This document shows, one piece after another, positions 1,353-31,413 of a stretch of 32,902 bases of DNA. The DNA comes from Candidatus Altimarinota bacterium (GTDB lineage: Bacteria; Patescibacteriota; Gracilibacteria; BD1-5; UBA2023). The stretch spans positions 1 through 32,902 of the forward strand of contig SSGK01000009.1 of NCBI GenBank assembly GCA_008015855.1, in the 5' to 3' direction. The position numbers and the translations under genes are program-made. The notes beneath the pieces are model-generated. The model was not told where the DNA came from, made no database searches, and saw only the letters and a program-made list of their open reading frames with translations. Position 1 is the first letter of the stretch; each line of letters starts with the position of its first letter.

Positions 1353-1458
1353 GAGGTAAATTAATTGGGTTTATTATAGATGTTTTTCTCGACTTGCAAA
1401 TTAAGAATCCTACCTAAAATAAGTCTATAGTTATGATATATCCTTTAAATTTCACCTC

Positions 1459-1956
1459 TTGAGAATATACATTACCGGACCTGCTGGATCAGGAAAATCA
1501 ACCATTGCAAAACAACTCTGAGAGTATTATTCCCTTCCTGTTACACACCTCGATACCCTTCTCTGGAAAGAAAATTGGATTGAAAATCCCGACTATAAAG
1601 AACTCCAAGGGGAAGTTCTTAAAAAAGAGTCTTGGATTATTGAATGACCCAGTTGTTCCATTATTAAGTCGATGGATATGGTTGATGCTATAATAATTCT
1701 CAATACAGGGTACATCGGAAATATGGGACGAATTCTAAAACGCACACTATTACACCGTTTTTGAAAAGAGAAACGAATAGGAATTAAAATTACGGAAAGA
1801 TGGAATATGTCTCTTTTTCTCAAGACTCTTACATGGAGAAAAAGGCAACTTCCCAGAATTCTCAAAAACATAGAATTACACGGGTTACAGGAAAAAACTT
1901 GTATTATCCATACGTCTAAAAATATGTTTCAAGAAGTACAAAGGTTTCTCGGATAA
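1459..1956 (+). CDS. P-loop NTPase/kinase, adenylate-kinase-like 'topology modulation protein' (FlaR) family
   Basis: Translation is (TTG)RIYITGPAGSGKSTIAKQLGEYYSLPVTHLDTLLWKENW...ESWIIE-G(TGA)-P..., the P-loop plus HLD..W..W..WIIDG pattern typical of FlaR-like kinases. There is no in-frame ATG between TAA 1420-1422 and the P-loop, so I call a TTG start at 1459. TAA stop at 1954-1956; 165 aa with three in-frame TGA. Confidence 0.75.
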
Positions 1957-1974
1957 AAAATCCAATAGATAACA

Positions 1975-2355
1975 CTAATCAATTCAGGCAATGTTGGAAT
2001 CACTCAATTCTAATCGTAAGATAGGGGTAACTTCATCTTCCTCTCAGCCTGAAAGATGGAAAGTGATAGACGGTACAAGGTCTGATTTTCATGACCAATA
2101 GCTCTCTTCAAATTTCTGAATTTCATGCATATAAAATATTGGATAGTCTCCAGAGAGAGTTTCTCGAAGAAAAATATTATCTGGAATATATCAAATCATT
2201 AATAATGTCTCAATTGCCTTTGAATGTTTGAGGAGTAATTCACATGTGTATTTCCAAATCTCTGATTGAACATATTCATCTCGGACTATTCCATATCTTT
2301 CTATACCAACAATATGAAGAATATTCTCAAGAAATTGATTATATATGAGTGACAT
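1975..2355 (-). CDS. hypothetical protein, 126 aa, no recognised domain
   Basis: ATG at 2353-2355 is the first start after in-frame TAA far upstream; TAG stop at 1975-1977; four in-frame TGA read as Gly. Product MSLIYNQFLENILHIVGIERYGIVRDEYVQSEIWKYTCELLL...YPIFYMHEIQKFEESYWSG... Absent from the standard-code track because TGA fragments it. Confidence 0.55.
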
Positions 2356-2373
2356 ATGCTGTGTATTAAAAAT

Positions 2374-2392
2374 ATATTGTGATATACAATAT
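2374..2392. repeat. perfect 7-bp inverted repeat (operator-like) upstream of the 126-aa ORF
   Basis: ATATTGT-gatat-ACAATAT, 19-37 nt upstream of ATG 2355. Confidence 0.3.
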
Positions 2393-2411
2393 GTACTTAA
2401 GAAGAAAAATC

Positions 2412-2442
2412 AAAATCCCCCCAGATATTTTGGGGAGATTTT
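2412..2442 (-). terminator. hairpin with flanking A/T runs directly after giant gene B
   Basis: Plus strand reads aaaatcCCCC-cagatatttt-GGGGagatttttt. On the minus strand the stem follows TAA 2444-2446 and is followed by a T-rich tract. Confidence 0.5.
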
Positions 2443-2443
2443 T

Positions 2444-5272
2444 TTATGCAATATGAGAGAGTCATACCTTGGAATAGAGTTCTTTTCGCATTTCAGGGGA
2501 AACGATTTTTTCATACTGTGCGAGGTATTTTTTCATGTATGATTCAGCCTTTCATGTATAATTGATTGTTCCATCAAATCCGAGATCTTTGAGGGCTGTT
2601 TTCCATTCTTCAATTCATCGAACATCTAAGAGTGATTCCCTTCCTGTATCATCTCGAGTAACATCTACTAATGCTGTCACTTTGCTTCCATCAAATGAAA
2701 TATCTCATGCATAACTTCCACTCGTGCGACCTGGTCAAAGAAGCATCTCAGAGAGCATCTTAATCACTTTCTCTTTTGACTCACTCGGAAGCGATGCAAT
2801 TTTCTCTTTTGCTTTTGCAGTATTAATTCCACCATCCGCTTGAACAATTCCCTCTCCTTTTAATTCATTAAAAATCTTCTCATCTTCTTGTAACTTATAC
2901 ACTCAGAATCCTATCGCGAGTGCTGTGGCAAAAGATGCTCCGAATCGAACATTCTGAGAAAGTGCGGCCCGACCAACATTGAGTGTACCAATTTCTGCCA
3001 TTCCTCAAATATTCCGTGCCCCAATATACGCATGACGAGCAAATCGAATTGTATCGAGTCAGAATTTTCCAGCATCAATCACGGGTTTAGCTATCCATTC
3101 AGCAAAAGCCACTGCCTTATTCGGTGCTCGCAACACCTTTGATAATTCATAGATACCAATAGCCCCTACCGCTCAACCTGCAACAATATATCCGGGATGT
3201 TTTGGGATATATCCATGCTCAACATCCATTCATTCATAAATAAGAATACTTGCACCATATAATGGATTCATCATGGCAATATCCTTTGCAAGTGTTGTGA
3301 GTTTATTATTTTTTGTTGATGCTACATCCGCAATAACAATAGTAAATCAAAGATTTCTAAATAAACCCTCAAAAGCACTTGGAGTTTCTCGTGTTATTCG
3401 TTGAATAATCTCCTTTGCATCATCTCAATCTTTTGCTAAGATAGTAATATTTGCTTTTTCAAATTCTGGAATAATCTTTGATTGTTTAAATCCCAATGCA
3501 ACATTCCTCAAATGCTTTGCAAGAGTCCAATTTTCCTTGATTATACCTCATAAGGAAGTACGAATTGATCTTGCCTCTTCTGCTACATTACGAAACATGA
3601 GATCTGTATCATCCATTCATTTAAATGCTCATTTCAATGTTTTTCCAACTCTATCACCCCATCACATGGAAGCAGAAGAAGAGTCTGCATTCTCAATAAT
3701 ACGAACCATTCATTCCTTCCACTTCATTCCACCTGATTTCTCCATCTCTACAAGAGCCGATTTAATAATTCAAGATTCAAAAGTACTTCCAGAATATTGT
3801 GTTTGTAAAGAAGTTAATCCTTTTTTAATCGTATCGAAAGAATCATCTGGAGAATTTTTAATAACATCGACAATACGCATTTTTACCTCGATTTCTCATA
3901 CCACTTTTCTTAAATCATCCGCAAATCACTTCGTTTGAGCACTTCATTCTGGTATTTCTTTCATATAATCGAGCAATATATTTGCTGACTTATTAAATTG
4001 TCAGGTTGCTCAAAAATATTGAGATTGTACTCATGGAACAAGAGTTCATTTTTCCCAGTATAAGGGTGCGAGAGCAATTGTAGAAAGTAATTTTGATGCC
4101 TTCCCTGCAAGAAACAGAGGAATTGCCATATGATGATATACTATCGGGAAAAATGTTGCTTTCAATTCTCCATTTTCCATAAGCTCTTCAAATCAGTATT
4201 CACCAATAAGATTTATAGCCTCTTTTGGTCATTTGGTAACCAATGTAAGAGCTGAACGGAGACCAAATTCTATCATTAATTTTGATCACTCTTTGATCTT
4301 TGCAGTAATAGCCTCCGGGGGTATTACTCACTCCTTAATAAGATCTTTTAAGAAAAGGATTCAATCTGTTCATGAAGCAAGTAAAACTTCCATAACATTC
4401 CATTCTTTCTTATCTGAGACATTCGATAATACTTTCCCCATTCATTCTTCAATTTTACCTCCATAATTTTTCCAAACTTTATTAAAAGCTGCAAGTTGTA
4501 TTACGGGATCCTTGATAAAACCTGATTTTACTAAATTATCCCAAGTACCTTTTTGAAGTTTCTGAACCTCATCTGACACCCTCTCTTTCAACTGTTCCGC
4601 TTTTTTTGCGGCTGTTTCAACTGGATTGGTAGAAGCAGTTTTGCATTGCTTTCCATCCTTTTTAAGAAACTTTGAAACATCAAAGAATTTATCGAGACCC
4701 AGCGCTGCAAAGAGTGCACCTATCATCTCGAGGAATCATTTCCAGAATTTCCCAAGTCCCCATTCATCTAATTTCTCCCCCACTTTTCCTGCATGTTCTT
4801 GAACATCGATTGCAACTGCCTGAACAACGGTTCCTGCTTTTTTCGCAAGTTTTCCAGCATCAACCGTTCCATCTGGAATTCAAAGCTTCTCAGCAATTTG
4901 CTCTCCTGCTTGAAGAATTTCCTTTCCCCCTGGAACATTCGTCTTTACGCTATCAAGTGCTTTCTCTGCTTGAGCGGCTATATCCGATGATTTCAGCTTC
5001 CCAAGAATACTTGATTGCAAAGAAGAATCAGCGCCATTCAAAACCTTCGGAAGTTCCGCATAGAGTGATTTCATATCCTTAAAAACATCCAGTTTTGCAG
5101 AGGTTCGAGAGGTAATGTATTCTCGAGTACGTTGATAGAGAACTTCAAATTCCTCGGGAGATAATTTTGGTGCCACTTCTTCACGAAGCATTTTCTCAAG
5201 GTCCGAAGTAACTCCCGAGAAAGTTTCTGGAGTTTTGTAGTAAGGAGATGGGAGGAAAGAATTCTTATTCAT
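2444..5272 (-). CDS. giant hypothetical protein B, 942 aa, Gly/Ala-rich hydrophobic segments, no recognised domain
   Basis: Track fragments 4880..5272 and 4442..4726 and about 2 kb with no listed minus-strand ORF fuse into one frame under table 25; every TGA coordinate is congruent mod 3. I walked all codons 2444-5272 and met no TAA or TAG. ATG at 5270-5272 is preceded by in-frame TAA 5282-5284; TAA stop at 2444-2446 is followed directly by a hairpin. About 34 in-frame TGA by hand count. Confidence 0.8.
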
Positions 5273-5281
5273 ACAAATTAA

Positions 5282-8200
5282 TTATTTTTTACTGTTATAG
5301 TGGTTTGTAAGGTATGCATCAACTTTTCCAGCATATTTTCAGAAAAATCAAGAAATATCCGCTTCAGTGATAGCCTTTGCTGGAACATCCGTCATTCGTT
5401 CCATAGTGTCCATCTGATCAAGAAAGAATCACTTGAATGGCCCAAAAAGGGTACAAATAATGAGATTTTGTACAGGATCTGAGAAGTCCATCTGATCTGG
5501 ATTTCTATAGAATGCTTCCATTCCCGTCATACCAGCTGCCATAGCTCCACGACGATTCCAAACGATATCCTTTGCCATACCACGTAATAATGCTCCGGTT
5601 GTTTGTGAAAAGCCATGACTGTGCTTCCATGCAGATATCGTTGCCTGTCAAAAATCCTGAATCGTCATTCATGCTACAAAATTTCAAAGCTTATTCTTAT
5701 AGTATCTCTCACCTGTTATCCCCATTGCTTCAAGTGTTTTCATTCCTTTTATTTTTTCAAATGCTGTATTGAAAACATTCGTTCATTTTCATTCCTTTGG
5801 CGCTGGCGTGGTTTCATGTGATTTCGTTGGGGTAACCTTCTCAGCCAATTCAACTTCTCCATTCTTTCATTTCTGAATAACGGTTTCAGGAGCTGCTTCT
5901 GGAGTTGTTTGTTTTGAAGTTTTTGAAGTTCCTACTTTACGCATAGCAGCATTTAAAAGAGCAAGAACGAATCATTGAAAAATTTGCTCACTCGTCCATT
6001 CTCCTCCACCCAAAGTAACCTGAAGACCTCCACCCACTATTCCAAATGCGGCTGTATCTAATACAATTCTTGTTGGTTCTTTGAGAAGCAGCTTTTGAGC
6101 AAGATTCCCCTCTGCGCTTCAGAACTTACTATAGATTCCATTCAACCCCTTAAAGGCAGCAGCAAATGCCATAGATTCGAGCCATCATTGCATACTGTAC
6201 CCTTCTGTCCAATTTCCATATTCAATTTGTGATTTTGCAGCACCGTATCCAGCATAGAAAGCGGTTCCCTCGATTGCTGTGGCACCAACAAAACCAGCTC
6301 ATTTTCCTGCAACCGATGCAATACGAGCCGTTCGAGATACCTGTCATACCATTTCGGTTCAACGTCCAAGGAGAGAAGTGAGCTTACCGATGCGTGATGC
6401 ACGAGCAGCATTTACTGCCCAAAATCCAGCAGAACCAGTGAATGCACCGGCAGCAATCGCAACAACCTCCATCGCTACCATTTCACATCAAAATTTCCAC
6501 CAATCAGCATTTTTATCAGCCACATGATTCCATCCAATTCCTTCGATATCCTTAAATAATTCTAGTTCCTTTGATTCTGGAATTTTATTTTTCTTTACCT
6601 CATCATATACATACTCATATTTCAAAGCAAGCAGGTTCGATTTCTCGATGAAACTCTTTTTCATTTGCTCAACAATAGTATCTCTTGATCGTTTATCTCC
6701 TGATTGAATTAAAGTGTCGGCTGTTGTTTGAAATTGGGTTGTATACGTAGTTACGGATAATTTTGCAACCTCTTCTCTCTTCTCCTTAAGACGCTCTTTT
6801 GCCTTGCTTGAAAGAATCTCATCTGATATCTTTGATTCATCCCATGCACTGCTCTTCCATGTGTGGAAGGTATCTTGAATCTTTCCATGCATTTTATTTC
6901 CACCAATAAATCCATCAATGAGCCGGTCGGAAATAAGAGCATATCCCTCTAGTTCGTTTTTTATATAGAGGTAGAGTTCTTGTTTATTTCTTGCTTCAAT
7001 ATATTCAATCAGTTTTGGCGCATCCTTGCTTCCAGTTTCTTTAATGAGTGATTGAAGAGCTGGAATCATTTCCTCTTGTTTTAATTTGCCTGATTCAATC
7101 GATTGAATAAATGCATCGAGTTTTTTATTCCAATCTTCTGACATATCCTTGGAGGCAAATGCCTGAAGGAGAAGAAGGTAATCATTTGATTTCTCTGAAA
7201 TATTTTTATAGCGCTCAATTGCCTTCTGAACACTCGAAGGAAAATCTTTGTATTCAATTGGAAGTGGTTTTCCATGAGAGCCAATAATATAATAACGACC
7301 ATCTCGGAAAGATGCGACCGTATGAACCGATTGCTGCTCTGTTTCTTGTTTTCCTGTTAACTCATTCCATTTTCTTTCTGCTGTCGCAATCCCTGATCCA
7401 ATAGCGGCTGTTACAGGAGCGGCTGCATCCTTGGCAGATTGAACTGCTGAATCGATTTTACCTGGTTCCTTTTTTTCACTCTTTTCCATCGGTATTTCTT
7501 TTGGTGCCTCATACTTCATGCCAAGAACTTCATCGAGATTTTTTGCTGTTTTTTTCACCTCTAAGAGCAATCTGAGGAGATACTCAACATTTTCTTTTCC
7601 ATACTTTTCAAGAAATTCATTTCATGATACTTTTTTACCATCTTCTGTAACAAGAAAATCACCCCCAAAGAGAGAAGAGAGGGTAAGTTCATCTTTTCCA
7701 TCAAGTGCTTTTTGTATATCTTCCACTCAAAATCTTCGAAAATTTTCTGATCGAATAAGGTGAGAATATATTTGAGAGAGCTGTTCTCCATCTTTCTTAT
7801 CAGATTCAACTTTCGCTCTATGCGTCGCAATAAAACCATCCGTAAATCACTTCACATTTTCTGGAATACTCTTTGGATCGAGGAGATGTAAAAATGCCTG
7901 TTTGGTTTCATTTTCGTTGGATTCTTGAGATGTTCATCCCTTGGATTCATTAAAACGTTTCATAAAATTCTTTCCGAATTCAGTATTCTTCAGTCAGAGA
8001 TATCCAAGTCCCGCTGCGAGTGTAATTCAAAATCCTTTCCAACCACCAAATACAACACCAAGAACGAGTGCTGCAAGAAAGACAAGGAACTCCCCTCATG
8101 CAAATGAATTTCCTGATTCAGGAGGGCGCATGTGAAATGTCTTTGCTAACTCAATTTGTTTATTCAAAGGAAAAATACCATCTACCACAGCTTGTGCCTG

Positions 8201-9256
8201 TTTTATATCTTGATTGTATCCCTTTACAAAATCCTTTACATCCGCCATATTCTTATAGGCACCATTTAGGTAAGCCCAAAGAAGCATTTGATCCGAGAGA
8301 AGGATATTAGAAGATGGAGCTGTTAAACGATCTCGAAGCGTATCTTTTGTGAGATTATATTTTTTAAAAAGGACGGTTTCCACATATTGAGCCACGTTTG
8401 CATCACCTACTAATTCTCATTTTTCATTTAATTGGGATGCAAGAAAAGTATCTCGCTCAGAAGAGTTTAGAAGAAGTGCTTTTTTGATATGCGTGAGAGA
8501 AATATCTTCTATCGCAAATTTCGCACGGAAATACTCATGAAGAGAGGAGACAGAGTCTTTTTGTTGTTCAGTATCGCCTTTCCCCTTATATTGAATCGTA
8601 AAATCATTTTCTCATGAAAACATGAAAAAATACCCCTGACTCGAAAGAATATTGAGAAATGAGTTTACCGTTAATTGCTTAAATGATTCACTCTTATCTC
8701 GACTAAATTCGAGAGCATCATCAAACTCCATTTTCCAATGAGCAATAGAAAAATTTCCATCGGAAAGTCGCTTTGTTTTTTCAGCCAGTTGAGAAGCAAA
8801 AGCATTTACCTGCTCTTTTACGATTGGCTTCTTTTCTTCGGATACAACTCATTGGGATGGTGCTACTTCAGATGATGGTTTTACGTCAACCTTTTGAGAT
8901 GGTGGAGTAATTTGAGATTTTAATTCTGCTCGCTTGAGTTGAGATTTAGCAACAGAATTCATAATATCATTTTGATGCTGTGCCTGCATCAAAGCATACT
9001 TGGATACCATTTCTTCCCAACGGGTAAAAAGTGGCTCAAGTGCACCAGTATAATCTGGACGCTGACGTTCTTGTCGTATCCATTCAGCATCTGCATCAAT
9101 ACGAGCCTTAATTGATTCAATAGGCGTATCGGTCGTAAATTTGTTTGACCAATCACGGTTTGTCTCATCTGGTTTTTCAATCTTTAAAATATTCACCGCA
9201 AGAGTATCTGCCGTGGTTTCTACTGTTCATTTATTAGCACCGCTCAAAAGTGACAT
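5282..9256 (-). CDS. giant hypothetical protein A, 1324 aa, internal hydrophobic hairpin clusters, no recognised domain
   Basis: Track fragments 8849..9196, 8096..8395 and 6488..7570 share one frame. I checked the connecting stretches 7571-8095, 8396-8848 and 5285-6487 codon by codon and they contain only TGA, no TAA or TAG. ATG at 9254-9256 is preceded by in-frame TAG 9293-9295; TAA stop at 5282-5284, 9 nt before the next start. About 27 in-frame TGA. Confidence 0.8.
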
Positions 9257-9355
9257 AAGGAAAAAATAAAGAATATCAGTTTCTCCTCTATGCTATCACA
9301 AGTTCTAGAAATCTACAAATTTTCGAAGATATATAGCATAAATTTTGCATCCATT

Positions 9356-9383
9356 ATATGGAATAGGTTGCAAATGCAAATTA
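9356..9383 (-). promoter_or_regulatory. candidate promoter for the giant-gene pair
   Basis: Minus strand TATAAT (9361-9356) with TTGCAT/TTTGCA 15-16 nt upstream (9383-9377). It lies downstream of terminator 9423..9450 and about 100 nt upstream of ATG 9256. Confidence 0.3.
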
Positions 9384-9422: not shown

Positions 9423-9450
9423 AAAAAAAAGACCCTTTTTAAAAGAGTCT
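9423..9450 (-). terminator. rho-independent terminator of the exonuclease gene
   Basis: Minus strand AGACTCTTTTAAAAAGGGTCT followed by TTTTTTTT. The stop codon lies inside the stem-loop. Confidence 0.6.
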
Positions 9451-10041
9451 CATAGTATTCGTGGATTCAAGAACAATAACATTTCGTTTTACTAATTCTA
9501 CAAAGGATCGCATGGTTGCTTCTACATCGACCATAGCATTATGTGCTCATTCAAACCATTCCTCAAAAAGAAACTTGTGCAGCTCGGAAAGTTTCGGTGG
9601 TTTATAGGAGAGTCATCGTCATTGAAGCTTACAGTATTCGGTAGAACTTCTCATAGTACAGATAGATTTCATAGGAGTATACTCCCCTACGCGTTTCATA
9701 CGCGCAAGTTCATAAGCTAAAACGGTTTCATCGTATTCTATATTATGACCCGCCACCACATCAGCGCTATTAAGTACTTTTAGTATCTTATCAATAGAAT
9801 CTTCAATATATGGCTTATCCACTAAATCACGATCATAGAGACCATGTACTTGAGAAGCTGCAAATGGAATCGAAATCTTTGGTCGAATGAGAATATCATG
9901 GCGTTCTATCTCGCTATAATCACCCTGTTCTGAAATCTCTCAAATAATCGCTGCAAATTGAATAATATGTGGTTGTTGATCGAGGGTTCATTCACGTACT
10001 GGAAAACCAGTGGTTTCCGTATCCCATACACATACACGCAT
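9439..10041 (-). CDS. DEDDh 3'-5' exonuclease, DnaQ / Pol III epsilon-like, stand-alone (200 aa)
   Basis: MRVCVWDTETTGFP (ExoI), ADVVAGHNIEYDETVL (ExoII), G(TGA)AHNAMVDVEAT (ExoIII with His). Extends track ORF 9619..9822 in the same frame through several TGA. ATG at 10039-10041; TAA at 9439-9441 lies inside a terminator hairpin. Confidence 0.85.
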
Positions 10042-10112
10042 AGAAAACAATCAATAATAAAATAATGACGAGAGTATATAAAAAAAGAGGGAAAAGTCAC
10101 ACTCAATCACTC

Positions 10113-10139
10113 AAAAAAAATCCCTTACGGGATTTTTTT
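10113..10139 (-). terminator. rho-independent terminator after secY (symmetrical A-run/T-run)
   Basis: aaaaaaaaTCCCttacGGGAttttttt immediately after the secY TAA. Confidence 0.7.
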
Positions 10140-11454
10140 AGTAGAAACGCTTATAATCAAAACTCTTAAGGTCGGAATCTATTCTACGAAGAATATCAAG
10201 AATCACTCCAACTACGATGATAAGTCCAGATCCTGAGATAAGAAAATCAATATTTCCATTTCCTGCAACGGGTATATTCAACATTAGCGCAAGCTTTGTT
10301 ACAACATATGGGAATACCGCAATGAGGGCAAGAAAGCTACCACCAAAGAGATTGAGATGATCTGAAGTCTTTTGAAGATACTCTGCTGTCTCTTTTCCTG
10401 GACGAATACCAGGAATATATCCACCACGCTTTTGAATTGTTTCAGAAACCTCATCAGTATTGAAGGTAATCGATACATAGAAGTATGAAAATCCAAGAAC
10501 CAAAAGGAAGTACACTGTTATATAAATCCAACCTGGATTATTCATAGAAAGATTTGCAGCGAGCCATGCACCAATTTCAGCACTTGAACCTGTTCCCTTC
10601 TTTTCAAGAATTTGACCAATAAGAGATGGGAATGTAACGATAGATACAGCAAAGATGATAGGAACCATTCCAGCCTGATTAATACGAATCGGAAAATGAG
10701 AGCGTTCTTCACGGCCAGTACGAGTATAAATAAGAGGAACTTTTCTGTATCCTTCGGTAAATTTAATAATTACATAAATAACACCGAGAGTAAGAAGTGT
10801 CAAAGCTACAAGAAGTCCAATACTATCAGTAGAGAGGTATCCAAGAATATGTTGTGGAACTCCAGCAAGTACTCCAGCAAAGATAATAATAGAAGTTCCG
10901 TTTCCTATACCACTTTCGTTAATAATATCACCAAGCCAAAGGAGAGCCATAGTACCAGCAGTGATAGTAATCATAGCAGGAAGAACTACTCCTGTAAAAT
11001 CAGTTGTATCGATAATACTCGTTCCTGATGTGCCAATAAGGGTATTCAAGAGAAGAATCATTCCATAGCTTTGTGCAAGAGCAAGAGGAACAGTGAGCCA
11101 ACGAGTATAATTATTGAGCTTTTTTTGACCTTGTTCTCCTTCCTTTTTGAGAGCCTCAAGTGATGGAACGATTACAGCAAGAAGCTGGATAATAATTGTT
11201 GCATTGATATAAGGAGCAAGACCCATGAGAACAATAGAAAAATTCTCAAGTCATCCACCCATAAGCGCACCGAAAAACGCAAGTTGTTGGTTCGCTTGAA
11301 GCTGAGTTGTAAATGCATCAAGTAACCCTACTTTAACACCTGGAACAGGAATAGCAGAAAAAAGCTTGTAAATTACGATAATACCAAGAGTTACAAGTAT
11401 CTTCTTTCGAATGTGTTCTGTTGTCCAGATCTTCTCAAGATGCTTAATAATCAT
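10138..11454 (-). CDS. secY: preprotein translocase subunit SecY
   Basis: Track ORFs 10138..11226 and 11251..11496 are in frame and joined by TGA 11251-11253, giving ...FFGALMGG-G-LENFSIVLMGLAPYINATIIIQLL..., the conserved SecY core. I prefer ATG 11452-11454 (MIIKHLEKIWTTEHIRKKILVTLGIIVIYKLFSAIPVPGV) over the upstream TTG used by the track. Confidence 0.93.
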
Positions 11455-12750: not shown

Positions 12751-12777
12751 AAAAGATGAGTAAAAAGCGAATAAAAA

Positions 12778-13116
12778 TTAGAGTGCAAGTCCTGCTTCAC
12801 GAGCTGCATCAGCAAGTGCCTTAACACGTCCGTGAAAAAGACATCCTCCTCGATCAAATACACATTCCTTTACTCCAAGCTCAAGTGCCTTCTTGGCAAT
12901 TTCTTGACCAACAAGAGTAGCACGTTCAGACTTTGTTCCCTTTGCATCGATATCGTTTGCAGAGCAGAGAGTCTTACCTGAAAGATCATCAATAAGTTGT
13001 ACACTTATATGAAGATTAGAACGAAATACACTGAGGCGAGGCTTTGTAGCTGTACCTTCGATGCGTGCACGAACACGAATTGCACGACGATTTCTTTTAG
13101 CGAATTTTTCCAACAT
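12778..13116 (-). CDS. rplR: 50S ribosomal protein L18
   Basis: ...[35 protein letters not shown]...[25 protein letters not shown]. Operon position. Confidence 0.95.
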
Positions 13117-13149
13117 ACGGGAGAAAGTGAGAATAAAATTAAGAAGAGA

Positions 13150-13701
13150 TTATTTTCCAGCGGTCTTACCTGCCTTGCGACGTACATGTTCACCTACATA
13201 GCGAATACCCTTTCCTTTGTATGGCTCAGGCTTCTTAAGAGAGCGAATATATGCAGCAAAATATCCAATAAGTTGTTTATCATGAGATGATACATGAATC
13301 TTATTCTTATCATCCTTATCTGCTTCAATTGTAATTCCAGCAGGAGCATCAACATTAACCTTGTGTGAAAAACCAAGAGAAAGCTCAAGTTTTGTAGGAC
13401 TCTTAATATCAAACTTATAACCTACACCAATAATTTCAAGAGACTTTTTGTATCCTTCAGATACCCCCTTAACATTGTTAGCGAGACAAGCTCGTGTAAG
13501 ACCCCAAAAAGCCTTTTGTTGCTTATCATCTTGATTTGCAATAGATACTTTAAGAGTATTACCTTCTTCAATTACCGTCACTCCTTCATAAATAGGAAAT
13601 GAAAGGGATCCTTTTGGACCATTAACAATCACCTCAGTTTGAGTGATTTGCGCGGTTACACCTGACGGGAGAGTAACGGGGAGTTTTCCGATTCGAGACA
13701 T
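13150..13701 (-). CDS. rplF: 50S ribosomal protein L6
   Basis: MSRIGKLPVTLPSGVTAQI...GPKGSLSF... plus C-terminal KPEPYKGKGIRYVGEHVRRKAGK. Operon position. Confidence 0.95.
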   Translation of the reverse strand: MSRIGKLPVTLPSGVTAQITQTEVIVNGPKGSLSFPIYEGVTVIEEGNTLKVSIANQDDKQQKAFWGLTRACLANNVKGVSEGYKKSLEIIGVGYKFDIKSPTKLELSLGFSHKVNVDAPAGITIEADKDDKNKIHVSSHDKQLIGYFAAYIRSLKKPEPYKGKGIRYVGEHVRRKAGKTAGK

Positions 13702-13725
13702 AGTAGTATAAACGAAAAATTAATG

Positions 13726-14112
13726 CTAGTAAACTTCACACAAGAGTTCACCTCCAACACCGAGGGTATGAGCTTCATAACCTGTAACTACACCCTTAGG
13801 AGTAGAAAGGATATAAATACCAAAACCGTTACGAGATTTTTTAATCTCAGTAGCTTTTATATACATGCGCTGACCTGGTCGGCTAATACGACGGAACGAT
13901 GGAACGTACTTAGTCTTGCGAACATCTTGAAGAGTAATCACGAAAGAACGCTTATCCTCACTTACAGTGTAATCGATGATATACTGATTCTTCTTGAGAA
14001 TGCGGAGAATTTGTTCTTTAAGACGAGAAAATGGAGCTTCAACAGTTTGAAGACGAGCAAGATATCCATTACGAATCCGAGTAAGAAGATCTGCGATTGG
14101 ATCGATTATCAT
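13726..14112 (-). CDS. rpsH: 30S ribosomal protein S8
   Basis: MIIDPIADLLTRIRNGYLA...GFGIYILSTPKGVVTGYEAHTLGVGGELLCEVY. Confidence 0.95.
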   Translation of the reverse strand: MIIDPIADLLTRIRNGYLARLQTVEAPFSRLKEQILRILKKNQYIIDYTVSEDKRSFVITLQDVRKTKYVPSFRRISRPGQRMYIKATEIKKSRNGFGIYILSTPKGVVTGYEAHTLGVGGELLCEVY

Positions 14113-14140
14113 AATCTATAATGAAAAACAGAAGTAAAAA

Positions 14141-14365
14141 TTACCAGCTAGATTTACGTACACCCATGAGTTCACCGGCATTTGCCTTCTCACGAACACA
14201 TATACGACAGAGATCAAATTTTCCCATATAACCCTGAGGACGTCCACAAAGTGAACAACGATGATAGAGTCGAGTAGAAAACTGTATCTTCTTTCCGAGA
14301 GCATGGTCACGCGCTGCTTTTTCGAGCGCATTCTGACATTTATTAACAATGGATTTACGTGCCAT
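14141..14365 (-). CDS. rpsN: 30S ribosomal protein S14 (zinc-ribbon type, 74 aa)
   Basis: MARKSIVNK...[24 protein letters not shown]...SSW shows the CxxC...CxxC pair and terminal W typical of S14/S14Z. Sits between rplE and rpsH. Confidence 0.9.
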
Positions 14366-14377
14366 AAAATGAAAAAA

Positions 14378-14917
14378 TTAACGAGAGAAAGGAAAACCGA
14401 GCTTATCAAGGAGAGCCTTAGAATGATCTTTACTCTGAGTCTTGAATTTGATTGTGATTTGAAGTCCATGTGGCTTAACTACGTCGAGCTGAGGTACTTC
14501 TGGGAAAATTGTATGTTCCTTAATACCAAAGTTGAAGTTTCCAGCATCATCGAATGAGCGAGAAGATATTCCACGGAAGTCACGAACACGAGGAAGAATG
14601 ATTGCAATAAGCTTCTCAAGGAAGTGAAACATTCTGTCTCCACGAAGTGTAACCATCATACCAACTGGCATATCCTTACGGAGCTTAAAGTTAGAGATAG
14701 CTTTACGTGAGAGAGCAACTCGTGGAAGTTGTCCAGAAATAAGTGCGAGATCATTTTTGAGACTTGAAAAGTCTTTATTTCCAGCAGCAACATAGGTACC
14801 GATACCCATATTGAGAACAATTTTCTCAATACGTGGAAGCTCCATTGGATTTTCAATTCCGAGCTCTTTCTGAATTTCCGGAAGGATTTTCTTTATGTAA
14901 TTTTCTTTGAATGACAT
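14378..14917 (-). CDS. rplE: 50S ribosomal protein L5
   Basis: ...NPMELPRIEKIVLNMGIG...MVTLRGDRMFHFLEKLI...RDFRG...FDDAGNFNFGIKEHTIFPE. Confidence 0.95.
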   Translation of the reverse strand: MSFKENYIKKILPEIQKELGIENPMELPRIEKIVLNMGIGTYVAAGNKDFSSLKNDLALISGQLPRVALSRKAISNFKLRKDMPVGMMVTLRGDRMFHFLEKLIAIILPRVRDFRGISSRSFDDAGNFNFGIKEHTIFPEVPQLDVVKPHGLQITIKFKTQSKDHSKALLDKLGFPFSR

Positions 14918-14941
14918 AATCTCTTGGTGAGAATAAATAAA

Positions 14942-15244
14942 TTAGAGAACTGAACCTGACTTCTTTGCAAAACGAACTTTCTTTCCGTTTTCAATCTTGT
15001 ATCCAACACGAGTTGGTTCACCAGTCTTTGGATCAGCAAGCATAACATTTGAAACATCAATAGGTTTTTCAAATTTTACGATTTGACCAGGAGTAGCACC
15101 TTGCTTTTTAACGTGTTTTGTAACAATATTAACACCTTCAACAATCACCTTGTTCTCAGAAGGAAAAGCACGGAGCACTTTTGCTTTCTTTCCCTTATCC
15201 TTTCCGGCAATAATTACAACGGTATCTTCAGTGTGAATTTTCAT
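14942..15244 (-). CDS. rplX: 50S ribosomal protein L24
   Basis: [27 protein letters not shown] (KOW motif)...[12 protein letters not shown]. Confidence 0.93.
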
Positions 15245-15265
15245 AAAATAGAGAAGATAATAAAA

Positions 15266-15634
15266 CTAAACAACTTCTGGAGCAAGGGAGATAATCTTTT
15301 GATATCCACGACCCTTGAGCTCACGGAATACAGGTCCAAAAATACGAGTTCCCTTTGGTTCCTTCTTGTCGTCAATAATAACACAAGCGTTATCATCAGA
15401 ACGAACGTAAGTTCCATCATCACGTCGAATAGCATTAGCAGTACGAACGATCACTGCTTTACATACTGACTTCTTCTTGATGTTTCCGTTTGGAAGAGCC
15501 TTCTTAACAGAAACTACGATGATGTCACCAACTGAAGCGTAACGACGCTTAGATCCTCAAAGAACTTTAATACAGAGTACTTCTTTCGCTCCTGTATTGT
15601 CCACGACTACGAGTCTGCTTTCTGTTTGAATCAT
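15266..15634 (-). CDS. rplN: 50S ribosomal protein L14
   Basis: Track ORF 15266..15454 is only the C-terminal half. Reading TGA 15557-15559 as Gly gives [46 protein letters not shown]..., 122 aa. The TGA falls on the invariant VLGGS glycine. Confidence 0.95.
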
Positions 15635-15651
15635 ATACGAGTATAAGAAAA

Positions 15652-15903
15652 TTAGTTACTAGAAGTGTTTGAAACAATTGAATCTTCGATGAGTATCCAA
15701 CGCTTTAACTTTGAAAGTGGACGAGTCTCACGAATTGTTACGGTATCACCAAGTTTTGCAGCACCATTTTCATCGTGAGCATAAAACTTAACAGAATACT
15801 GATATCGTTTCTTGTACTTCGGATGAGTCTTGTAAGTATGAACAGTGACAGTAATAGTTTTTTGCATTTTAGTACTTGTCACGATCCCAGTCTTTGTACG
15901 CAT
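15652..15903 (-). CDS. rpsQ: 30S ribosomal protein S17
   Basis: [45 protein letters not shown]...[17 protein letters not shown]. Confidence 0.93.
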
Positions 15904-15926
15904 AGAAATAAAACGAATAGAAAATA

Positions 15927-16145
15927 TTATTTAGAAGAAAGAAAAGTAGATGCTTGTGCAATATACTTTCGATACTTTCGAAGAAGGTGTGGTTGCTTGA
16001 GCTCACCCATAGTATGCTTCATTCGGAGAACGAAGAATTCTTTGCGAGCACCTTCGATCTCCTTTCGGATTTCTCCAGCTTCAAGACTCTCGAGCACTTC
16101 AAGATCTTTAAATTCTTGGGATGTTGTTTTCTTAGTTCGTGGCAT
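15927..16145 (-). CDS. rpmC: 50S ribosomal protein L29
   Basis: 72 aa ...[40 protein letters not shown]. Sits between rplP and rpsQ. Confidence 0.88.
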
Positions 16146-16175
16146 AACGAGAAAAATAGAGAAAATTAATGAGTT

Positions 16176-16592
16176 TTAGAAATCAGTTTTTGAAAGAAGA
16201 ATCTTCGTTTTAACTGGGAGCTTGTAAGAAGCAAGCGTAAAAGCTTCCCTTGCAACTTCTGGGGTAACATCTTTGAGTTCAAAAATGATACGTCCAGGTT
16301 TTACAGGAGCTCGGTACATTTCAACACTTCCCTTTCCTCATCCCATTGGAACTTCAAGAGGTTTCTTCGTAAAAGGTTTGTCTGGGAAAATACGAATCCA
16401 CATCTGACCTCCCTTTTTAAGGAAACGGACGATCGCTTTACGTGCTGATTCAATCTGACGAGAAGTAATATAACCTGCTTCAGTCGTCTTGATAGCGTAA
16501 TCACCGAAGTTGATTTCAGAACCGCGAGTAGCAATTCCCTTGATCACACCACGATGCGCCTTGCGATATTTCGTCTTATTTGGTTGTAACAT
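16176..16592 (-). CDS. rplP: 50S ribosomal protein L16
   Basis: [19 protein letters not shown]...PLEVPMG-G(TGA 16338-16340)[21 protein letters not shown]...; 138 aa; TAA at 16176-16178. The track shows only the N-terminal 84 aa. Confidence 0.94.
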
Positions 16593-16639
16593 GGAAAAAT
16601 GTGTTAAGAATTATAGAGATAATTTGAAAAAATCAAATT

Positions 16640-17278
16640 TTATTTTTTAAATACATCACCTTTGTATACCCAAACCTTGATACCAACTGTACCAGCGACT
16701 GTTTCAGCGCGTTCTGTAGCGTAATCAATGTCAGCACGAATAGTTTGAGCAGGAATAGCACCATCCTTGTAAGTCTCACGACGAGCAATTTCAGCACCAT
16801 TAAGACGTCCACCAAGTTTTACCTTGATACCAAGACCACCCTTTTCAAGAGTTTTTCCCATTGCATTCTTAATAACACGACGGTAAGGCATCTTTTTTTC
16901 AATTTGGCGAGCAATAGAATCTGCAACGATTGAAGCAGAGAGTTCAGGTTTGCGAACCTCCTTAATTTCAATAGTGAAAACATATCCAGGAAAACGCTTT
17001 CCAAGGTTATCCTTGAGAAGATTTACGTTTTCATCATTCGTTCCAAGAGCAAGTGCTGTTCGTGAAGTATACACAACAATATTAACAGCATTTCCGCTTG
17101 AATGATTAATGAAGAGGTTTCCAACAGGAACTCCCTTAAAGTGTTTAGTAACAAATTTACGTATCTGAAGATCATCAGCTACATAAGATGCATATTGCTT
17201 CTTATCAAAATATCAGCTTGTTCTCCAAGTTTTGATATATCCGATACGGAATGCAAGAGGACTTACTTTGTGTCACAT
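16640..17278 (-). CDS. rpsC: 30S ribosomal protein S3
   Basis: Starts M-G(TGA 17273-17275)-HKVSPLAFRIGYIKTWRTS-G(TGA)-YF..., matching the universal MGQKV.P...R start of S3. Continues into track ORF 16640..17074; 212 aa. Confidence 0.94.
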
Positions 17279-17308
17279 AATCGTATGAAAGGAAAAATTA
17301 AAAAAGAA

Positions 17309-17635
17309 TTATTTTACACCAAGAGCAACATTCACATTTGAAGTTCTCTTAAGGATACGATGTGCTCGTCCTCGAGAAATTGGATTGTGACGACGATATA
17401 CAACACCCTGTGTAACAACAACAGAACCGATACGAAGATTTTCAAGTTCTTGACCATCATTATGAGTTGCATTAGCAACTGCACTGGCAATAACCTTGTA
17501 GAGAATGTCTGCACCCTTCTTCGGCATAAAGCGAAGTGTATCAAGTGCTTGTTTTGCATCCATTTCACGCACGATGTAAGCGATTACATTGAGCTTCTTA
17601 GGTGAGATGCGTACGTTACTAACGATTGCTTTCAT
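17309..17635 (-). CDS. rplV: 50S ribosomal protein L22
   Basis: MKAIVSNVRISPKKLNVIAYIVREMDAKQALDTLRFMPKKGA...RRHNPISRGRAHRILKRTSNV. Confidence 0.94.
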   Translation of the reverse strand: MKAIVSNVRISPKKLNVIAYIVREMDAKQALDTLRFMPKKGADILYKVIASAVANATHNDGQELENLRIGSVVVTQGVVYRRHNPISRGRAHRILKRTSNVNVALGVK

Positions 17636-17662
17636 AAAAATCGAGAAATAGAGAAATGAAAA

Positions 17663-17926
17663 TTATTTATTACCTGAGTGACCAGTGAAACGACGAGTGA
17701 AAGAGAATTCACCGAGTTTGTGACCAACCATATCTTCTGTTACAAAAACTGGAACATGTTGTTTTCCGTTATGAACACCAAATGTGTGACCAACGAATTC
17801 AGGTGCAACAGTACAATCGCGAGCCCATGTTTTAAGAACGGTTTTCTTACCACTCTCATTGAGAGTTTGAACCTTCTTCATGAGACGAACATCTATATAT
17901 GGTCATTTCTTGAGACTACGAGTCAT
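17663..17926 (-). CDS. rpsS: 30S ribosomal protein S19
   Basis: MTRSLKK-G(TGA 17903-17905)[11 protein letters not shown]...[32 protein letters not shown]. The TGA is on the invariant SLKKGP glycine; 87 aa. Confidence 0.95.
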
Positions 17927-17962
17927 AGTGTGAGAAGTTAGAAGTGTAGAATTAAAGGAGAA

Positions 17963-18808
17963 TTATCACATGAGTTTTCCAGAACGAGTTCTGAGAATCC
18001 AACGATCTGTATACTTTCTGTTACGAGTCTTGATTCCACGTGCAAGTTTTCCTTGTGGTGTCTTAGGACCCTTACGTTGTCCAAGTGATTGATGTCCTTC
18101 ACCTCATCCATGTGGATGGTCTACTGGGTTCATAGATGAACCAAGAACTGTTGGTCGGATACCCATCCAACGAGAACGTCCAGCCTTACCAATTGTGATT
18201 TGATTCCAGTCAATATTAGAAACAGTTCCAACGGTAGCATAACATTTCTTGTGTACAAGACGAATTTCACCAGAAGGCATCTTAAGTTGAGTGTATTCTC
18301 CTTCTTGAGAGATTACTGTTGCAGATGAACCAGCTGAACGGATAGCAGTAGCTCCTTGTCCAACAATCATTTCAACATTGTAAACTACGATACCAGTTGG
18401 GATATTTCCGATTTCCATACGATTTCCAGCAATTGGCTTCGCAGTTGCTGCTGTAATAATAGTATCACCAACTTGCATGTCCTTGTGAGCAAGAACGTAA
18501 CGACGTTCTCCATCTACATAACATACGAGAGCAATGAAACCTGAACGATATGGATCGTATTCAATAGTTTCAACACGAGCTGGGATATCAAGTTTATCAG
18601 TAAACTTAAAATCAATGATACGATAGAGCTTCTTATGACCAGCACCCTTATGACGTACACTTACGCGTCCAGCACTATTACGTCCAGCTGTTGCCTTAAA
18701 GTAAGTAGTAAGTGGCTTATATGGTTCTGTAGCAGTAATCTCATCAAATGAGAGCCCTGTCATGAAACGTCGTGATGGGGTGGTAGGCTTATATTTCTTG
18801 ATTGCCAT
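17963..18808 (-). CDS. rplB: 50S ribosomal protein L2
   Basis: Track ORF 18104..18808 ends ...NPVDHPHG. TGA 18104-18106 read as Gly restores HPHG-G-GEGHQSLG...RKYTDRWILRTRSGKLM-G(TGA)-TAA. True stop TAA at 17963-17965; 281 aa. Confidence 0.95.
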
Positions 18809-18844
18809 AATAAAATGAGTTAAGATTGAGTAAGATAATGAGGA

Positions 18845-31405: not shown

Positions 31406-31413
31406 GACAATAA

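What the first reader, a model, noticed from the sequence alone, without database searches (positions are those of the whole stretch)
1975..9256. Self-contained two-gene unit of giant orphan proteins hidden from standard-code ORF calling
The standard-code track shows only scattered fragments and antisense ORFs across this region. Under table 25 it resolves into a 1324-codon gene and a 942-codon gene 9 nt apart on the minus strand. Upstream the preceding exonuclease gene ends in a hairpin terminator (9423..9450), and a TATAAT-containing AT-rich gap follows. Downstream a hairpin sits directly after the second stop (2412..2442), then comes a 126-codon orphan ORF. I recognise no catalytic motif, nucleotide-binding loop, repeat family or Sec/lipoprotein signal in either giant product. 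Both are long, charged proteins interrupted by Gly/Ala-rich hydrophobic stretches of membrane-spanning length. Large proteins with no Sec signal but internal hydrophobic hairpins resemble translocator/pore-forming or tape-measure-like proteins. In an episymbiotic or predatory CPR lineage, a host-membrane attachment or penetration role is a reasonable hypothesis. That hypothesis is inference only.
Basis: inference. Interest (0 to 1): 0.85.

Follow-up and report, generated by a model that had tools for sequence, protein, structure and literature searches.

The report
Conserved giant envelope-protein gene pair
Two very large genes, readable only when TGA is decoded as glycine, are real, co-transcribed and conserved as a neighbouring pair in Gracilibacteria, Absconditabacteria and related Patescibacteria; they match no described protein family and most likely build a membrane and cell-wall-associated complex whose function is unknown.

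Summary
Conserved motifs show that the window uses TGA as glycine (code 25). On the minus strand this gives gene A (9256..5282, 1324 aa) and gene B (5272..2444, 942 aa), 9 nt apart and bracketed by terminator-like hairpins. Both are under purifying selection (dN/dS 0.08 and 0.10 against a 98%-identical strain).

"Orphan" is wrong. A full HMMER scan of 1.84 billion representative proteins found a small A family of 1000-1500 aa "hypothetical proteins". A B-family gene lies directly downstream of the A homologue in five other loci (B vs L017 partner, E 3e-35).

Pfam, NCBIfam, PHROGs, PADLOC, PDB, phage and plasmid searches and Foldseek all failed to assign either conserved core.

Loop charges alternate across 11 A-family members. 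This fits a five-helix Gly/Ala-rich membrane domain with the N-terminus outside and the C-terminus inside. Extra domains in single members agree: SH3b N-terminal and FliG_C C-terminal (a PG_binding_1 match is borderline).

Neighbouring genes are often cell-wall or division genes: divergent ftsX in five lineages, plus YkuD, 3D/PG_binding and LysM. I favour a lineage-specific envelope and cell-wall complex. The tape-measure reading finds no support, and the host-attack reading is untested and not excluded.

The parts
5282..9256 (-). Gene A. 1324 codons plus TAA, with 27 in-frame TGA (Gly). Founding member here of the 'A family' of 1000-1500 aa Patescibacteria proteins.
   Evidence: frame, start, stop. 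(dN/dS 0.077 against L001, no internal stops). (18 hits at E<=1e-3 in 1.84 billion representatives; best distant hit P0020, E 2e-48). (blastp to G-corrected homologues, 1e-59 to 1e-18).
7982..8110 (-). A residues 383-425. Strongly hydrophobic helix, then a short basic turn (GGWKGFG), then a Gly-rich helix. This N-terminal membrane hairpin is present in about half of the family.
   Evidence: KD 2.3-2.5. Equivalent segments occur in L007_A, L009_A, L010_A, L012_A, L013_A and P0034. They are absent in L008_A, L011_A, L015_A, L016_A and L017_A.
6527..7309 (-). A residues 650-910. Conserved module starting with the GRYYIIGxDGxPxLIEYxxLSPE beta motif, followed by a helical bundle. It is the only part modelled with confidence.
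   Evidence: alignment A3. (AF2 pLDDT 70-90 for model residues about 20-270). (no Foldseek match: best E 1.1 in PDB, 0.064 in BFVD).
5933..6496 (-). A residues 921-1108. Conserved core of five Gly/Ala-rich hydrophobic helices, with motifs LFKDIEGIGW, AxExxAxxAGxxTAxAGxxAVNA, AxEGxxFYxGY and ExGEWTxE. Inferred five transmembrane segments, N-terminus outside and C-terminus inside.
   Evidence: Summed net charge (K+R minus D+E) over 11 members, from the segment before H1 to the segment after H5: -19, +46, -18, +28, -12, +25. H1 reaches KD 1.6-2.1 in all members. AF2 is unconfident here (pLDDT below 50).
5285..5932 (-). A residues 1109-1324. Variable C-terminal region ending in a further Gly-rich hydrophobic patch. 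Inferred cytoplasmic.
   Evidence: basic flank after H5. (FliG_C domain at the equivalent place in P0031, E 1.9e-12). Blastp of A to L007_A extends to residue 1282.
2444..5272 (-). Gene B. 942 codons plus TAA, with 34 in-frame TGA (Gly). Member of the 'B family' that sits directly downstream of A homologues.
   Evidence: (dN/dS 0.104). (L017_B vs B: E 2.9e-35, 23% identity over nearly the full length). (hhalign to the L010/L011/L015/L016 partner profile: probability 96.7%, E 4.6e-10; hmmsearch 28.6 bits against 4.7 for the best of 200 shuffles).
2750..3448 (-). B residues 609-841. The best-conserved part of the B family, with motifs PExxxGxFxxxPIxAxAG, xPxVG, KPxxDI and a hydrophobic helix at 774-795. 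Weakly hydrophobic helices that may be membrane-embedded.
9429..9451 (-). Terminator-like hairpin plus T-run at the end of the upstream DEDDh exonuclease gene. Marks the 5' boundary of the A-B unit.
9353..9380 (-). Promoter-like TTTGCA-16-TATAAT, about 100 nt upstream of the A start codon.
   Evidence: This is a consensus match only; such matches are not enriched over shuffles.
2412..2442 (-). Terminator-like hairpin (12 pairs) plus T-run, 2 nt after the B stop codon. Marks the 3' boundary of the A-B unit.

Best explanation
A and B are the two co-transcribed subunits of a lineage-specific cell-envelope complex found in TGA=Gly Patescibacteria (Gracilibacteria, Absconditabacteria and relatives).

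Shown:
- Both are real protein-coding genes under purifying selection.
- They form one transcription-unit-like block.
- Each belongs to a small family with no described relatives.
- The two families are neighbours in at least six loci (the window plus five more distant ones).

Inferred:
- A is anchored in the cell's own membrane by a conserved bundle of five Gly/Ala-zipper helices, with the N-terminus outside and the C-terminus inside.
- In this organism an additional N-terminal hydrophobic hairpin also anchors A.
- A projects a long, mostly helical N-terminal part towards the cell wall and a variable tail into the cytoplasm.
- B, which has weaker hydrophobic helices in its C-terminal third, docks onto A.
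- The complex has no recognisable catalytic site. It most likely acts as a structural or regulatory scaffold connected with peptidoglycan handling and cell division, working with or alongside FtsX. It is less likely to be an enzyme or a weapon.
For: Real genes and an operon:
- Code 25 is established.
- The open frames are far beyond chance.
- dN/dS is 0.077 and 0.104, with no stops in four other strains.
- The spacer is 9 nt, and terminator-like hairpins lie on both sides.

Families and synteny:
- The A family comes from the full HMMER scan and was confirmed on G-corrected translations.
- A B-family gene lies 20-790 nt downstream of the A homologue in L010, L011, L015, L016 and L017.
- Named sources are Ca. 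Absconditabacteria, Ca. Gracilibacteria and the Patescibacteria group.

Membrane topology of A:
- H1 has KD 1.6-2.1 in all members.
- Loop charges alternate strictly over 11 members: -19, +46, -18, +28, -12, +25.

Domains added in single members, consistent with N-out and C-in:
- SH3_3 at the N-terminus of L011_A, 27.3 bits against a cut-off of 27.
- PG_binding_1 at the N-terminus of P0035, 22.6 bits against a cut-off of 23, so borderline.
- FliG_C after the core in P0031, E 1.9e-12.

Cell-wall and division neighbourhood:
- Division-type FtsX lies divergently upstream in L009, L011, L013/14, L015 and L016. These FtsX proteins are only 49-74% identical to each other.
- A 3D + PG_binding_1 protein lies directly upstream in L007.
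- YkuD lies upstream in L008.
- LysM proteins lie downstream in L009.

Not mobile or viral: flanks are ribosomal, secY, tRNA-modification and chaperone genes, and there are no phage or plasmid matches.
Against: - No signal peptide or N-terminal anchor exists to export an N-terminal part of 470-900 residues. Hairpin-less members have none at all, so the N-out topology needs an unknown export route or is wrong.
- Helices H2-H5 of A, and all helices of B, are only weakly hydrophobic. AF2 gave pLDDT below 50 for the A core and 39 overall for B.
- ftsX is not adjacent in the window itself, nor in L007, L008, L010 or L017. The FtsX link could be inherited gene order within one subclade.
- Two of the three added domains are at or below threshold, and each occurs in a single member.
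- In L007 and L009 the large downstream gene is not detectably a B homologue.
- No expression or localisation data exist.
Confidence: 0.4

Rival explanations
1. Host- or prey-directed apparatus. A and B are exported without a Sec signal. They mediate attachment to the host cell, or insert their Gly-zipper helices into the host membrane as a translocator or pore.
For: - Neither family has a signal peptide, although wall-binding modules occur in the N-terminal parts of single members.
- Glycine-zipper-like helices of modest hydrophobicity are typical of proteins that insert after secretion.
- The family is restricted to lineages reported as episymbiotic or predatory. Large surface proteins have been proposed to serve attachment in Vampirococcus (PMC8080830).
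- A strain-level mosaic allele of B in L005 could reflect diversifying exchange.
Against: - There is no similarity to any translocator, toxin or adhesin family.
- Purifying selection is strong, with no diversifying signal in four strains.
- The alternating loop charges fit co-translational insertion under the positive-inside rule.
- A FliG_C domain in one member points to a cytoplasmic tail.
- Neighbours are the cell's own wall and division genes. No secretion-system genes are adjacent; T4SS_pilin genes occur only several kb away in two loci.
Confidence: 0.2
2. Cytoplasm-facing membrane scaffold. All large soluble parts lie in the cytoplasm. The hydrophobic hairpin and core helices are re-entrant or paired anchors, as in an EzrA-, dynamin- or flotillin-like organiser.
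For: - This removes the export problem, since there is no signal peptide.
- The proteins are long, charged and almost wholly helical.
- FliG_C is a cytoplasmic domain.
- The basic flank after the N-terminal hairpin of A suggests that the region after it is inside.
Against: - Five helices with strictly alternating loop charge put the two ends on opposite sides.
- SH3b and PG_binding_1 modules are normally extracytoplasmic.
- There is no nucleotide-binding or known scaffold domain.
Confidence: 0.2
3. Remnant of a mobile element: a phage tape-measure protein with a partner, or conjugation VirB6/TraG-like proteins.
For: - Size, helical content, Gly-rich hydrophobic segments, lack of a signal peptide and occasional wall-binding modules all recall tape-measure proteins.
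- A few tape-measure proteins appear among the non-significant Foldseek hits.
Against: - Pfam and PHROGs give nothing.
- tblastn finds no match in 50,697 phage records (A core and B) or 72,556 plasmid records (A core only).
- The IMG/VR scan is negative.
- Foldseek best E is 0.064 with TM about 0.1.
- There are no phage or conjugation neighbours in any of the eleven loci.
- The chromosomal context is conserved and selection is purifying.
Confidence: 0.03

Closest known systems
EsaA / YueB / YhgE-Pip type envelope proteins of Gram-positive bacteria (established knowledge)
   Same: Proteins of about 1000 residues with a long, mostly helical extracellular part, a cluster of about five C-terminal transmembrane helices and an extra N-terminal membrane segment. 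They are chromosomal and act as structural envelope components.
   Different: No sequence match to the Pfam or NCBIfam models of these families at E<=1. No type VII secretion context. Half of the A family lacks any N-terminal anchor. A has a large cytoplasmic tail and an obligate large partner, B.
Coiled-coil partners of FtsEX that control wall hydrolases: EnvC, PcsB, CwlO, RipC (established knowledge)
   Same: Genomic association with division-type ftsX in five lineages. A long helical part predicted to face the wall. SH3b or PG_binding modules in some members. A 3D/PG_binding_1 protein, YkuD and LysM proteins as neighbours.
   Different: No LytM, CHAP, NlpC/P60 or amidase domain. Polytopic membrane anchoring instead of secretion. 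Three to four times larger. ftsX is not adjacent in the window or in four other loci. Binding to FtsX is untested.
Phage tail tape-measure proteins
   Same: Long helical proteins without a signal peptide, interrupted by Gly-rich hydrophobic segments, sometimes carrying wall-binding or lytic modules.
   Different: No sequence or fold similarity, no phage neighbours, and a conserved housekeeping context.
Secreted membrane-inserting proteins with a bilobed hydrophobic hairpin: chlamydial Inc proteins and type III translocators (established knowledge)
   Same: A residues 383-425 form a hydrophobic hairpin of about 40 residues flanked by large hydrophilic parts. There is no Sec signal.
   Different: No similarity (the IncA chain appears only at E 0.78). 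No type III or type IV secretion genes are adjacent. The hairpin is strongly hydrophobic (KD 2.5), which fits insertion into the producer's own membrane. It is dispensable in half of the family.

Membership tests
Code-25 (TGA=Gly) protein-coding genes of Gracilibacteria/Absconditabacteria | In-frame TGA at positions where relatives have glycine, not tryptophan | tested here: met
   Housekeeping motifs. At A's TGA columns relatives have Gly (GGN or TGA) 63 times and Trp once. At B's TGA columns they have Gly 39 times and Trp never.
Code-25 (TGA=Gly) protein-coding genes of Gracilibacteria/Absconditabacteria | Purifying selection on the long frame | tested here: met
   dN/dS is 0.077 for A and 0.104 for B against L001. 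No internal TAA/TAG in L001-L004.
Phage tail tape-measure protein | Sequence or profile similarity to tape-measure families | tested here: not met
   Pfam and PHROGs give no hit. tblastn against phages finds no match. The IMG/VR scan is negative.
Phage tail tape-measure protein | Location in a tail-gene module with chaperone, distal tail and capsid genes | tested here: not met
   Flanks are secY, an exonuclease, an ABC exporter, ribosomal genes, ftsX and similar in all loci.
Phage tail tape-measure protein | Fold similarity | tested here: inconclusive
   Foldseek against BFVD gives best E 0.064 with TM about 0.1. Only the 650-910 module of the model is confident.
Conjugation / type IV secretion VirB6-TrbL or TraG | Match to PF04610, PF07916 or related models, with VirB4/VirD4 neighbours | tested here: not met
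   No Pfam or NCBIfam hit at E<=1. No plasmid match for the A core. No VirB4/VirD4 genes in any locus. T4SS_pilin genes lie only at a distance in L010 and L011.
EsaA / YhgE-Pip envelope proteins | Match to the family models (NCBIfam pip_yhgE and esaA, Pfam equivalents) | tested here: not met
   No hits.
EsaA / YhgE-Pip envelope proteins | Topology of one N-terminal transmembrane segment, a large ectodomain and about five C-terminal transmembrane segments | tested here: inconclusive
   The five-helix core with alternating loop charge is met. The N-terminal segment is a hairpin, and it is absent in half of the family.
FtsEX-coupled wall-hydrolase regulators (EnvC/PcsB/CwlO/RipC-like) | Genomic or physical association with FtsX | tested here: inconclusive
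   ftsX lies divergently adjacent in 5 of about 10 lineages, but not in the window. Physical binding cannot be tested here.
FtsEX-coupled wall-hydrolase regulators (EnvC/PcsB/CwlO/RipC-like) | Hydrolase or degenerate hydrolase domain (LytM, CHAP, NlpC/P60) | tested here: not met
   No such Pfam domain in A, B or eleven relatives.
Anti-phage defence systems | Match to PADLOC models | tested here: not met
   No hit for A, B or ORF C.

The most novel reading that the evidence does not exclude
A and B form a previously undescribed envelope machine of the Gracilibacteria-Absconditabacteria clade. Its ectodomains of 500-900 residues would reach the cell surface without any Sec signal, which implies a new export or insertion route. 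The machine would couple the cytoplasm, through a FliG-like tail in one lineage, to the wall, the FtsX division apparatus or the host contact site. If so, it is a key piece of how these episymbionts divide on, or attach to, their hosts.
Probability: 0.2. Interest if true: 0.8.

Novelty: categorically new. Interest (0 to 1): 0.55.

Why it matters
- Gracilibacteria and Absconditabacteria are uncultivated or barely cultivated episymbionts or predators, and their envelope biology is almost unknown.
- Here are two large proteins, together about 7 kb of a reduced genome. They are conserved as a pair across lineages whose orthologues share only 20-30% identity, they are under purifying selection, and no existing family library covers them.
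- Public annotation hides or distorts them. Code-11 calls break them into fragments, and table-4 calls put Trp where Gly belongs.
- The analysis gives concrete, testable handles: a five-helix Gly/Ala-zipper membrane core with a predicted orientation, a confidently modelled ectodomain module, an obligate partner, and a recurrent link to ftsX and wall-binding modules.
- If the N-out topology is right, it also raises the question of how such large N-terminal parts cross the membrane without a signal.
- If instead the pair turns out to be one more lineage-specific membrane scaffold, the value is mainly better annotation of code-25 genomes.

Tried and rejected
1. The word-indexed homologue search found nothing for A, only near-identical copies for B, and nothing new with the A-core profile. 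Its candidate filter missed every relative that the full HMMER scan later found.

2. Peptide-pattern scans were negative. Both scans of GTDB representative genomes found no relative. The JGI metagenome scan returned only a chance match in an arginyl-tRNA synthetase (L006). These negatives are weak, because the patterns contained Trp or Gly residues that are encoded by TGA.

I therefore used table-4 versions, with Trp at TGA sites, from P0003 and P0001. This may have lowered model confidence.

4. AF2 of B gave mean pLDDT 39 and was not used for fold search. AF2 of the A core was confident only for residues 650-910 of A.

5. Foldseek against PDB and BFVD, and sequence and profile searches against PDB, gave nothing. 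The designed helical repeat hits for B reflect composition only.

6. A and B are not paralogues of each other.

7. The weak COMMD1_N and lethal-factor hits for B were rejected as below threshold.

8. ORF C was rejected as part of the conserved unit. It has no homologues, all differences between strains are nonsynonymous (4 distinct nonsynonymous sites, 0 synonymous), it lies beyond the terminator, and it is absent from other loci.

9. The ABC ATPase upstream of the A homologue in L010 is DrrA-like, not FtsE.

10. Two papers on Vampirococcus and on groundwater Gracilibacteria mention large surface proteins in general but nothing identifiable as this pair.

Full report
**1. What the window is**

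The window has 37.6% G+C. Under the standard code it yields only short ORFs. With TGA read as sense it resolves into a dense bacterial gene map. That map includes:
- a ribosomal-protein operon ending in secY;
- a DEDDh (RNase_T) exonuclease;
- a PBP2-type transpeptidase, a CHASE2 cyclase, EAL and PAS/GGDEF proteins, TlyA, YebC and an ABC exporter.

TGA sits at invariant glycines: L2 HPHGxGEG, Walker A IVxPSGSGKT and cyclase FSDIExFT. The code is therefore table 25, the code of Gracilibacteria and Absconditabacteria. With only TAA and TAG as stops, many long antisense ORFs also open. Their translations are low-complexity junk.

**2. Check of the observation**

Gene A runs 9256..5282 on the minus strand: ATG to TAA, 1324 codons, 27 TGA. 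Gene B runs 5272..2444: ATG to TAA, 942 codons, 34 TGA. The spacer is 9 nt. Frames this long free of TAA/TAG have probabilities of about 4e-30 and 1e-21 at this base composition.

A terminator-like hairpin with a T-run overlaps the exonuclease stop (9451..9429). A 12-pair hairpin with a T-run follows the B stop (2442..2412). A TTTGCA-16-TATAAT match lies at 9380..9353. The 126-codon ORF C lies at 2355..1975.

Neither giant product has an N-terminal hydrophobic signal. Neither matches any model in Pfam, NCBIfam, PHROGs or PADLOC, or any PDB sequence at a meaningful level. The only adjustments are a few bases in the hairpin coordinates and the weaker hydrophobicity of B.

**3. They are real genes**

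Near-identical copies (97.8-99.0% DNA identity) occur on contigs from four other assemblies (L001-L004). There the same three genes were called with table 4. Against L001, gene A has 76.5 synonymous and 22.5 nonsynonymous differences (dN/dS 0.077). Gene B has 24 and 9 (dN/dS 0.104). Neither has an internal stop.

At A's TGA columns the relatives carry Gly in 63 cells and Trp in one. At A's TGG columns Trp is common. TGA is therefore glycine in these very genes.

**4. They are not orphans**

The word-indexed search failed. The full HMMER scan of 1.84 billion cluster representatives did not. I queried it with residues 125-1324 of the L001 copy of A. The tool accepted only the table-4 translation. 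It returned 18 hits at E<=1e-3. Thirteen are distinct distant relatives; most are 1000-1523 aa and three are shorter (341-447 aa). The best is P0020 at E 2e-48.

Where sources give a name, it is "hypothetical protein" from Ca. Gracilibacteria, Ca. Absconditabacteria or the "Patescibacteria group". I fetched their contigs and retranslated them with TGA as Gly. All but one (L008, 57% G+C, code 11) use TGA as sense.

The shared part covers A residues about 640-1110 (alignment A3). It consists of:
- a beta motif, GRYYIIGxDGxPxLIEYxxLSPE, followed by a helical bundle;
- the motif LFKDIEGIGW;
- five Gly/Ala-rich hydrophobic helices carrying the motifs AGxxTAxAGxxAVNA, AxEGxxFYxGY and ExGEWTxE.

About half of the members, including A, also have an N-terminal extension. 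It ends in a hydrophobic hairpin with a short basic turn.

**5. The pair is conserved**

In L010 (Absconditabacteria), L011, L015 and L016, the A homologue is followed by a second large gene of 908-1088 codons, or at least 763 where the contig ends. These partners are homologous to one another (blastp 4e-6 to 3e-97).

B joins this family. Profile-profile comparison gives probability 96.7% and E 4.6e-10 over B 609-841. An HMM of the four partners scores B at 28.6 bits, against 4.7 bits for the best of 200 shuffles.

The clearest link came from L017 (GCA_049315825.1). NCBI called that genome with code 11, which left fragments of 183, 237, 67 and 544 aa. Read with TGA as sense, the locus holds a 1280-codon A homologue. 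A 970-codon B homologue follows 90 nt downstream. It aligns with B over nearly its full length at E 2.9e-35 and also hits the other partners.

A-B synteny is thus seen in six loci whose A proteins share only 22-33% identity with the window's A. In L007 and L009 the A homologue is followed by a different or unrecognisably diverged large protein with C-terminal transmembrane helices. In L008, L012 and L013/14 the contig ends, or the downstream flank is uninformative. ORF C has no counterpart anywhere.

**6. What the proteins look like**

AF2 on the A core, with 13 sequences, gave pLDDT 70-90 for A residues 650-910. That part forms a three-stranded sheet plus a helical bundle. The hydrophobic region scored below 50. 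Foldseek found nothing in PDB (best E 1.1) or in BFVD (best E 0.064, TM about 0.1). AF2 on B failed, with mean pLDDT 39.

Topology had to be inferred from sequence. Helix H1 of the core reaches KD 1.6-2.1 in every member. Summed over 11 members, the net charge (K+R minus D+E) of the six flanking segments alternates, in order from before H1 to after H5: -19, +46, -18, +28, -12, +25. By the positive-inside rule (established knowledge), this is the signature of five membrane spans with the N-terminal side outside and the C-terminal side inside.

Three independently added domains agree with that orientation:
- SH3_3 in the N-terminal part of L011_A (27.3 bits; cut-off 27);
- a borderline PG_binding_1 in the N-terminal part of P0035 (22.6 bits; cut-off 23);
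- a clear FliG_C domain (E 1.9e-12) after the core in P0031.

The unsolved problem is export. No member has a signal peptide, and members without the hairpin have no membrane segment ahead of an N-terminal part of 470-640 residues.

**7. Context**

All loci are ordinary chromosome, with ribosomal proteins, EF-Tu, GroEL, tRNA-modification enzymes and secY. None contains phage or conjugation genes.

What recurs next to the A homologue is cell-wall and division machinery:
- A full-length division-type FtsX on the opposite strand directly upstream in L009, L011, L013/14, L015 and L016. NCBIfam FtsX_Gpos gives E 1e-25 to 1e-28 for the two tested, and the FtsX proteins are 49-74% identical to each other.
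- A 3D + PG_binding_1 protein directly upstream in L007.
- A YkuD L,D-transpeptidase upstream in L008.
- LysM proteins downstream in L009.

In the window itself the neighbours are the exonuclease and secY on one side, and ORF C, a P-loop kinase and an ABC exporter on the other. The ftsX link is therefore frequent but not universal.

**8. Interpretation**

Shown:
- two real genes under selection, forming an operon-like unit;
- two undescribed families;
- conserved adjacency of the two families;
- restriction, as far as sampled, to Patescibacteria lineages, nearly all with TGA as Gly.

Inferred with moderate support:
- A is a polytopic membrane protein with a five-helix Gly/Ala-zipper core, N-out and C-in;
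- B is its partner.

Inferred with weaker support:
- the complex belongs to the cell's own envelope;
- it is functionally tied to peptidoglycan and division, possibly through FtsX;
- it acts as a scaffold or regulator, since no catalytic domain is detectable.

It would explain the missing signal peptide. It gains nothing from the tests I ran, and it is opposed by the charge pattern, the FliG_C tail, the neighbourhood and the strong purifying selection.

The tape-measure and conjugation readings are effectively excluded. A cytoplasm-facing scaffold is the main structural alternative.

**9. Comparison with known systems**

In architecture, the nearest analogues are the EsaA/YueB/YhgE-Pip envelope proteins. 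In context, the nearest are the FtsEX-coupled coiled-coil regulators EnvC, PcsB, CwlO and RipC. Membership in each was tested and not met: there are no model matches and no hydrolase-type domain. I therefore file the pair as new at the family level, with function undetermined.

**10. Limits**

- Structure predictions had to use translations with Trp at TGA sites and shallow alignments.
- The negative scans of GTDB and JGI contigs used peptide patterns compromised by TGA-encoded residues.
- The family census rests on one HMMER scan of 50%-identity representatives, in which many code-25 proteins are fragmented or mistranslated. The true distribution is probably wider than the 13 relatives found.

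Noticed in passing
window 2444..4420 compared with L005:1-3562: A contig from another sample (Logan SRR14932528) carries a mosaic allele of gene B. Its DNA is 97-100% identical to the window from about 3060 down to about 900. Upstream of about 3060 it is only 45-80% identical. At protein level it is 56% identical over B 286-730 and identical over the last ~215 residues but one (V766I). This is either a recombinant allele or an assembly chimera.
   Followed up: partly
window 5282..9256; L017:8360-15200: Public annotation of these genes is broken. The window's own NCBI record and GCA_049315825.1 were gene-called with code 11, so A and B exist there only as fragments: P0004 of 356 aa, and L017 pieces of 183, 237, 67 and 544 aa. 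Logan and ENA calls use table 4, which places Trp at every TGA-encoded Gly.
   Followed up: yes
window 1975..2355 (-): ORF C (126 codons) has no homologue outside this species. It lies beyond the terminator-like hairpin of B. All differences between strains are nonsynonymous (4 distinct nonsynonymous sites, none synonymous). No counterpart follows B in other loci. Whether it is a gene is doubtful.
   Followed up: partly
L009:1852-2745, L011:8946-9824, L013:2-187, L015:199-1101, L016:342-1241: A division-type ftsX gene, without an adjacent ftsE, lies on the opposite strand directly upstream of the A homologue in five lineages. The FtsX proteins are only 49-74% identical to each other.
   Followed up: partly
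L015:1332-4721 (P0031 residues 818-900): One A-family member carries a clear FliG_C domain (E 1.9e-12) after the membrane core. This is unexpected in a lineage not known for flagella.
   Followed up: no
L010:4137-8708; L009:2886-7049: Some A-family members contain internal tandem repeats. L010_A has two copies of about 190 residues C-terminal of the core. L009_A has three copies of ASLGSKTPKNPAGTAGT ahead of the beta motif.
   Followed up: no
window 9439..11454 (-): secY (11454..10138) is followed by a DEDDh RNase_T-type exonuclease (10041..9439; Pfam E 9e-19), not by the usual adk/map genes. A small P-loop kinase-like ORF lies on the other strand at 1423..1953.
   Followed up: no
window 12775..18820 (+) and elsewhere: With TGA read as sense, long antisense ORFs of up to 502 codons open opposite the ribosomal-protein genes. 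Their translations are low-complexity and they are artefacts of having only two stop codons.
   Followed up: partly
window 29348..32685 (-); L011:1064-4464: A CHASE2-adenylate/guanylate cyclase followed by a protein of about 410-420 aa with no Pfam family hit recorded for the L011 copy is present both in the window and in L011. This suggests a second conserved gene pair in these lineages.
   Followed up: no
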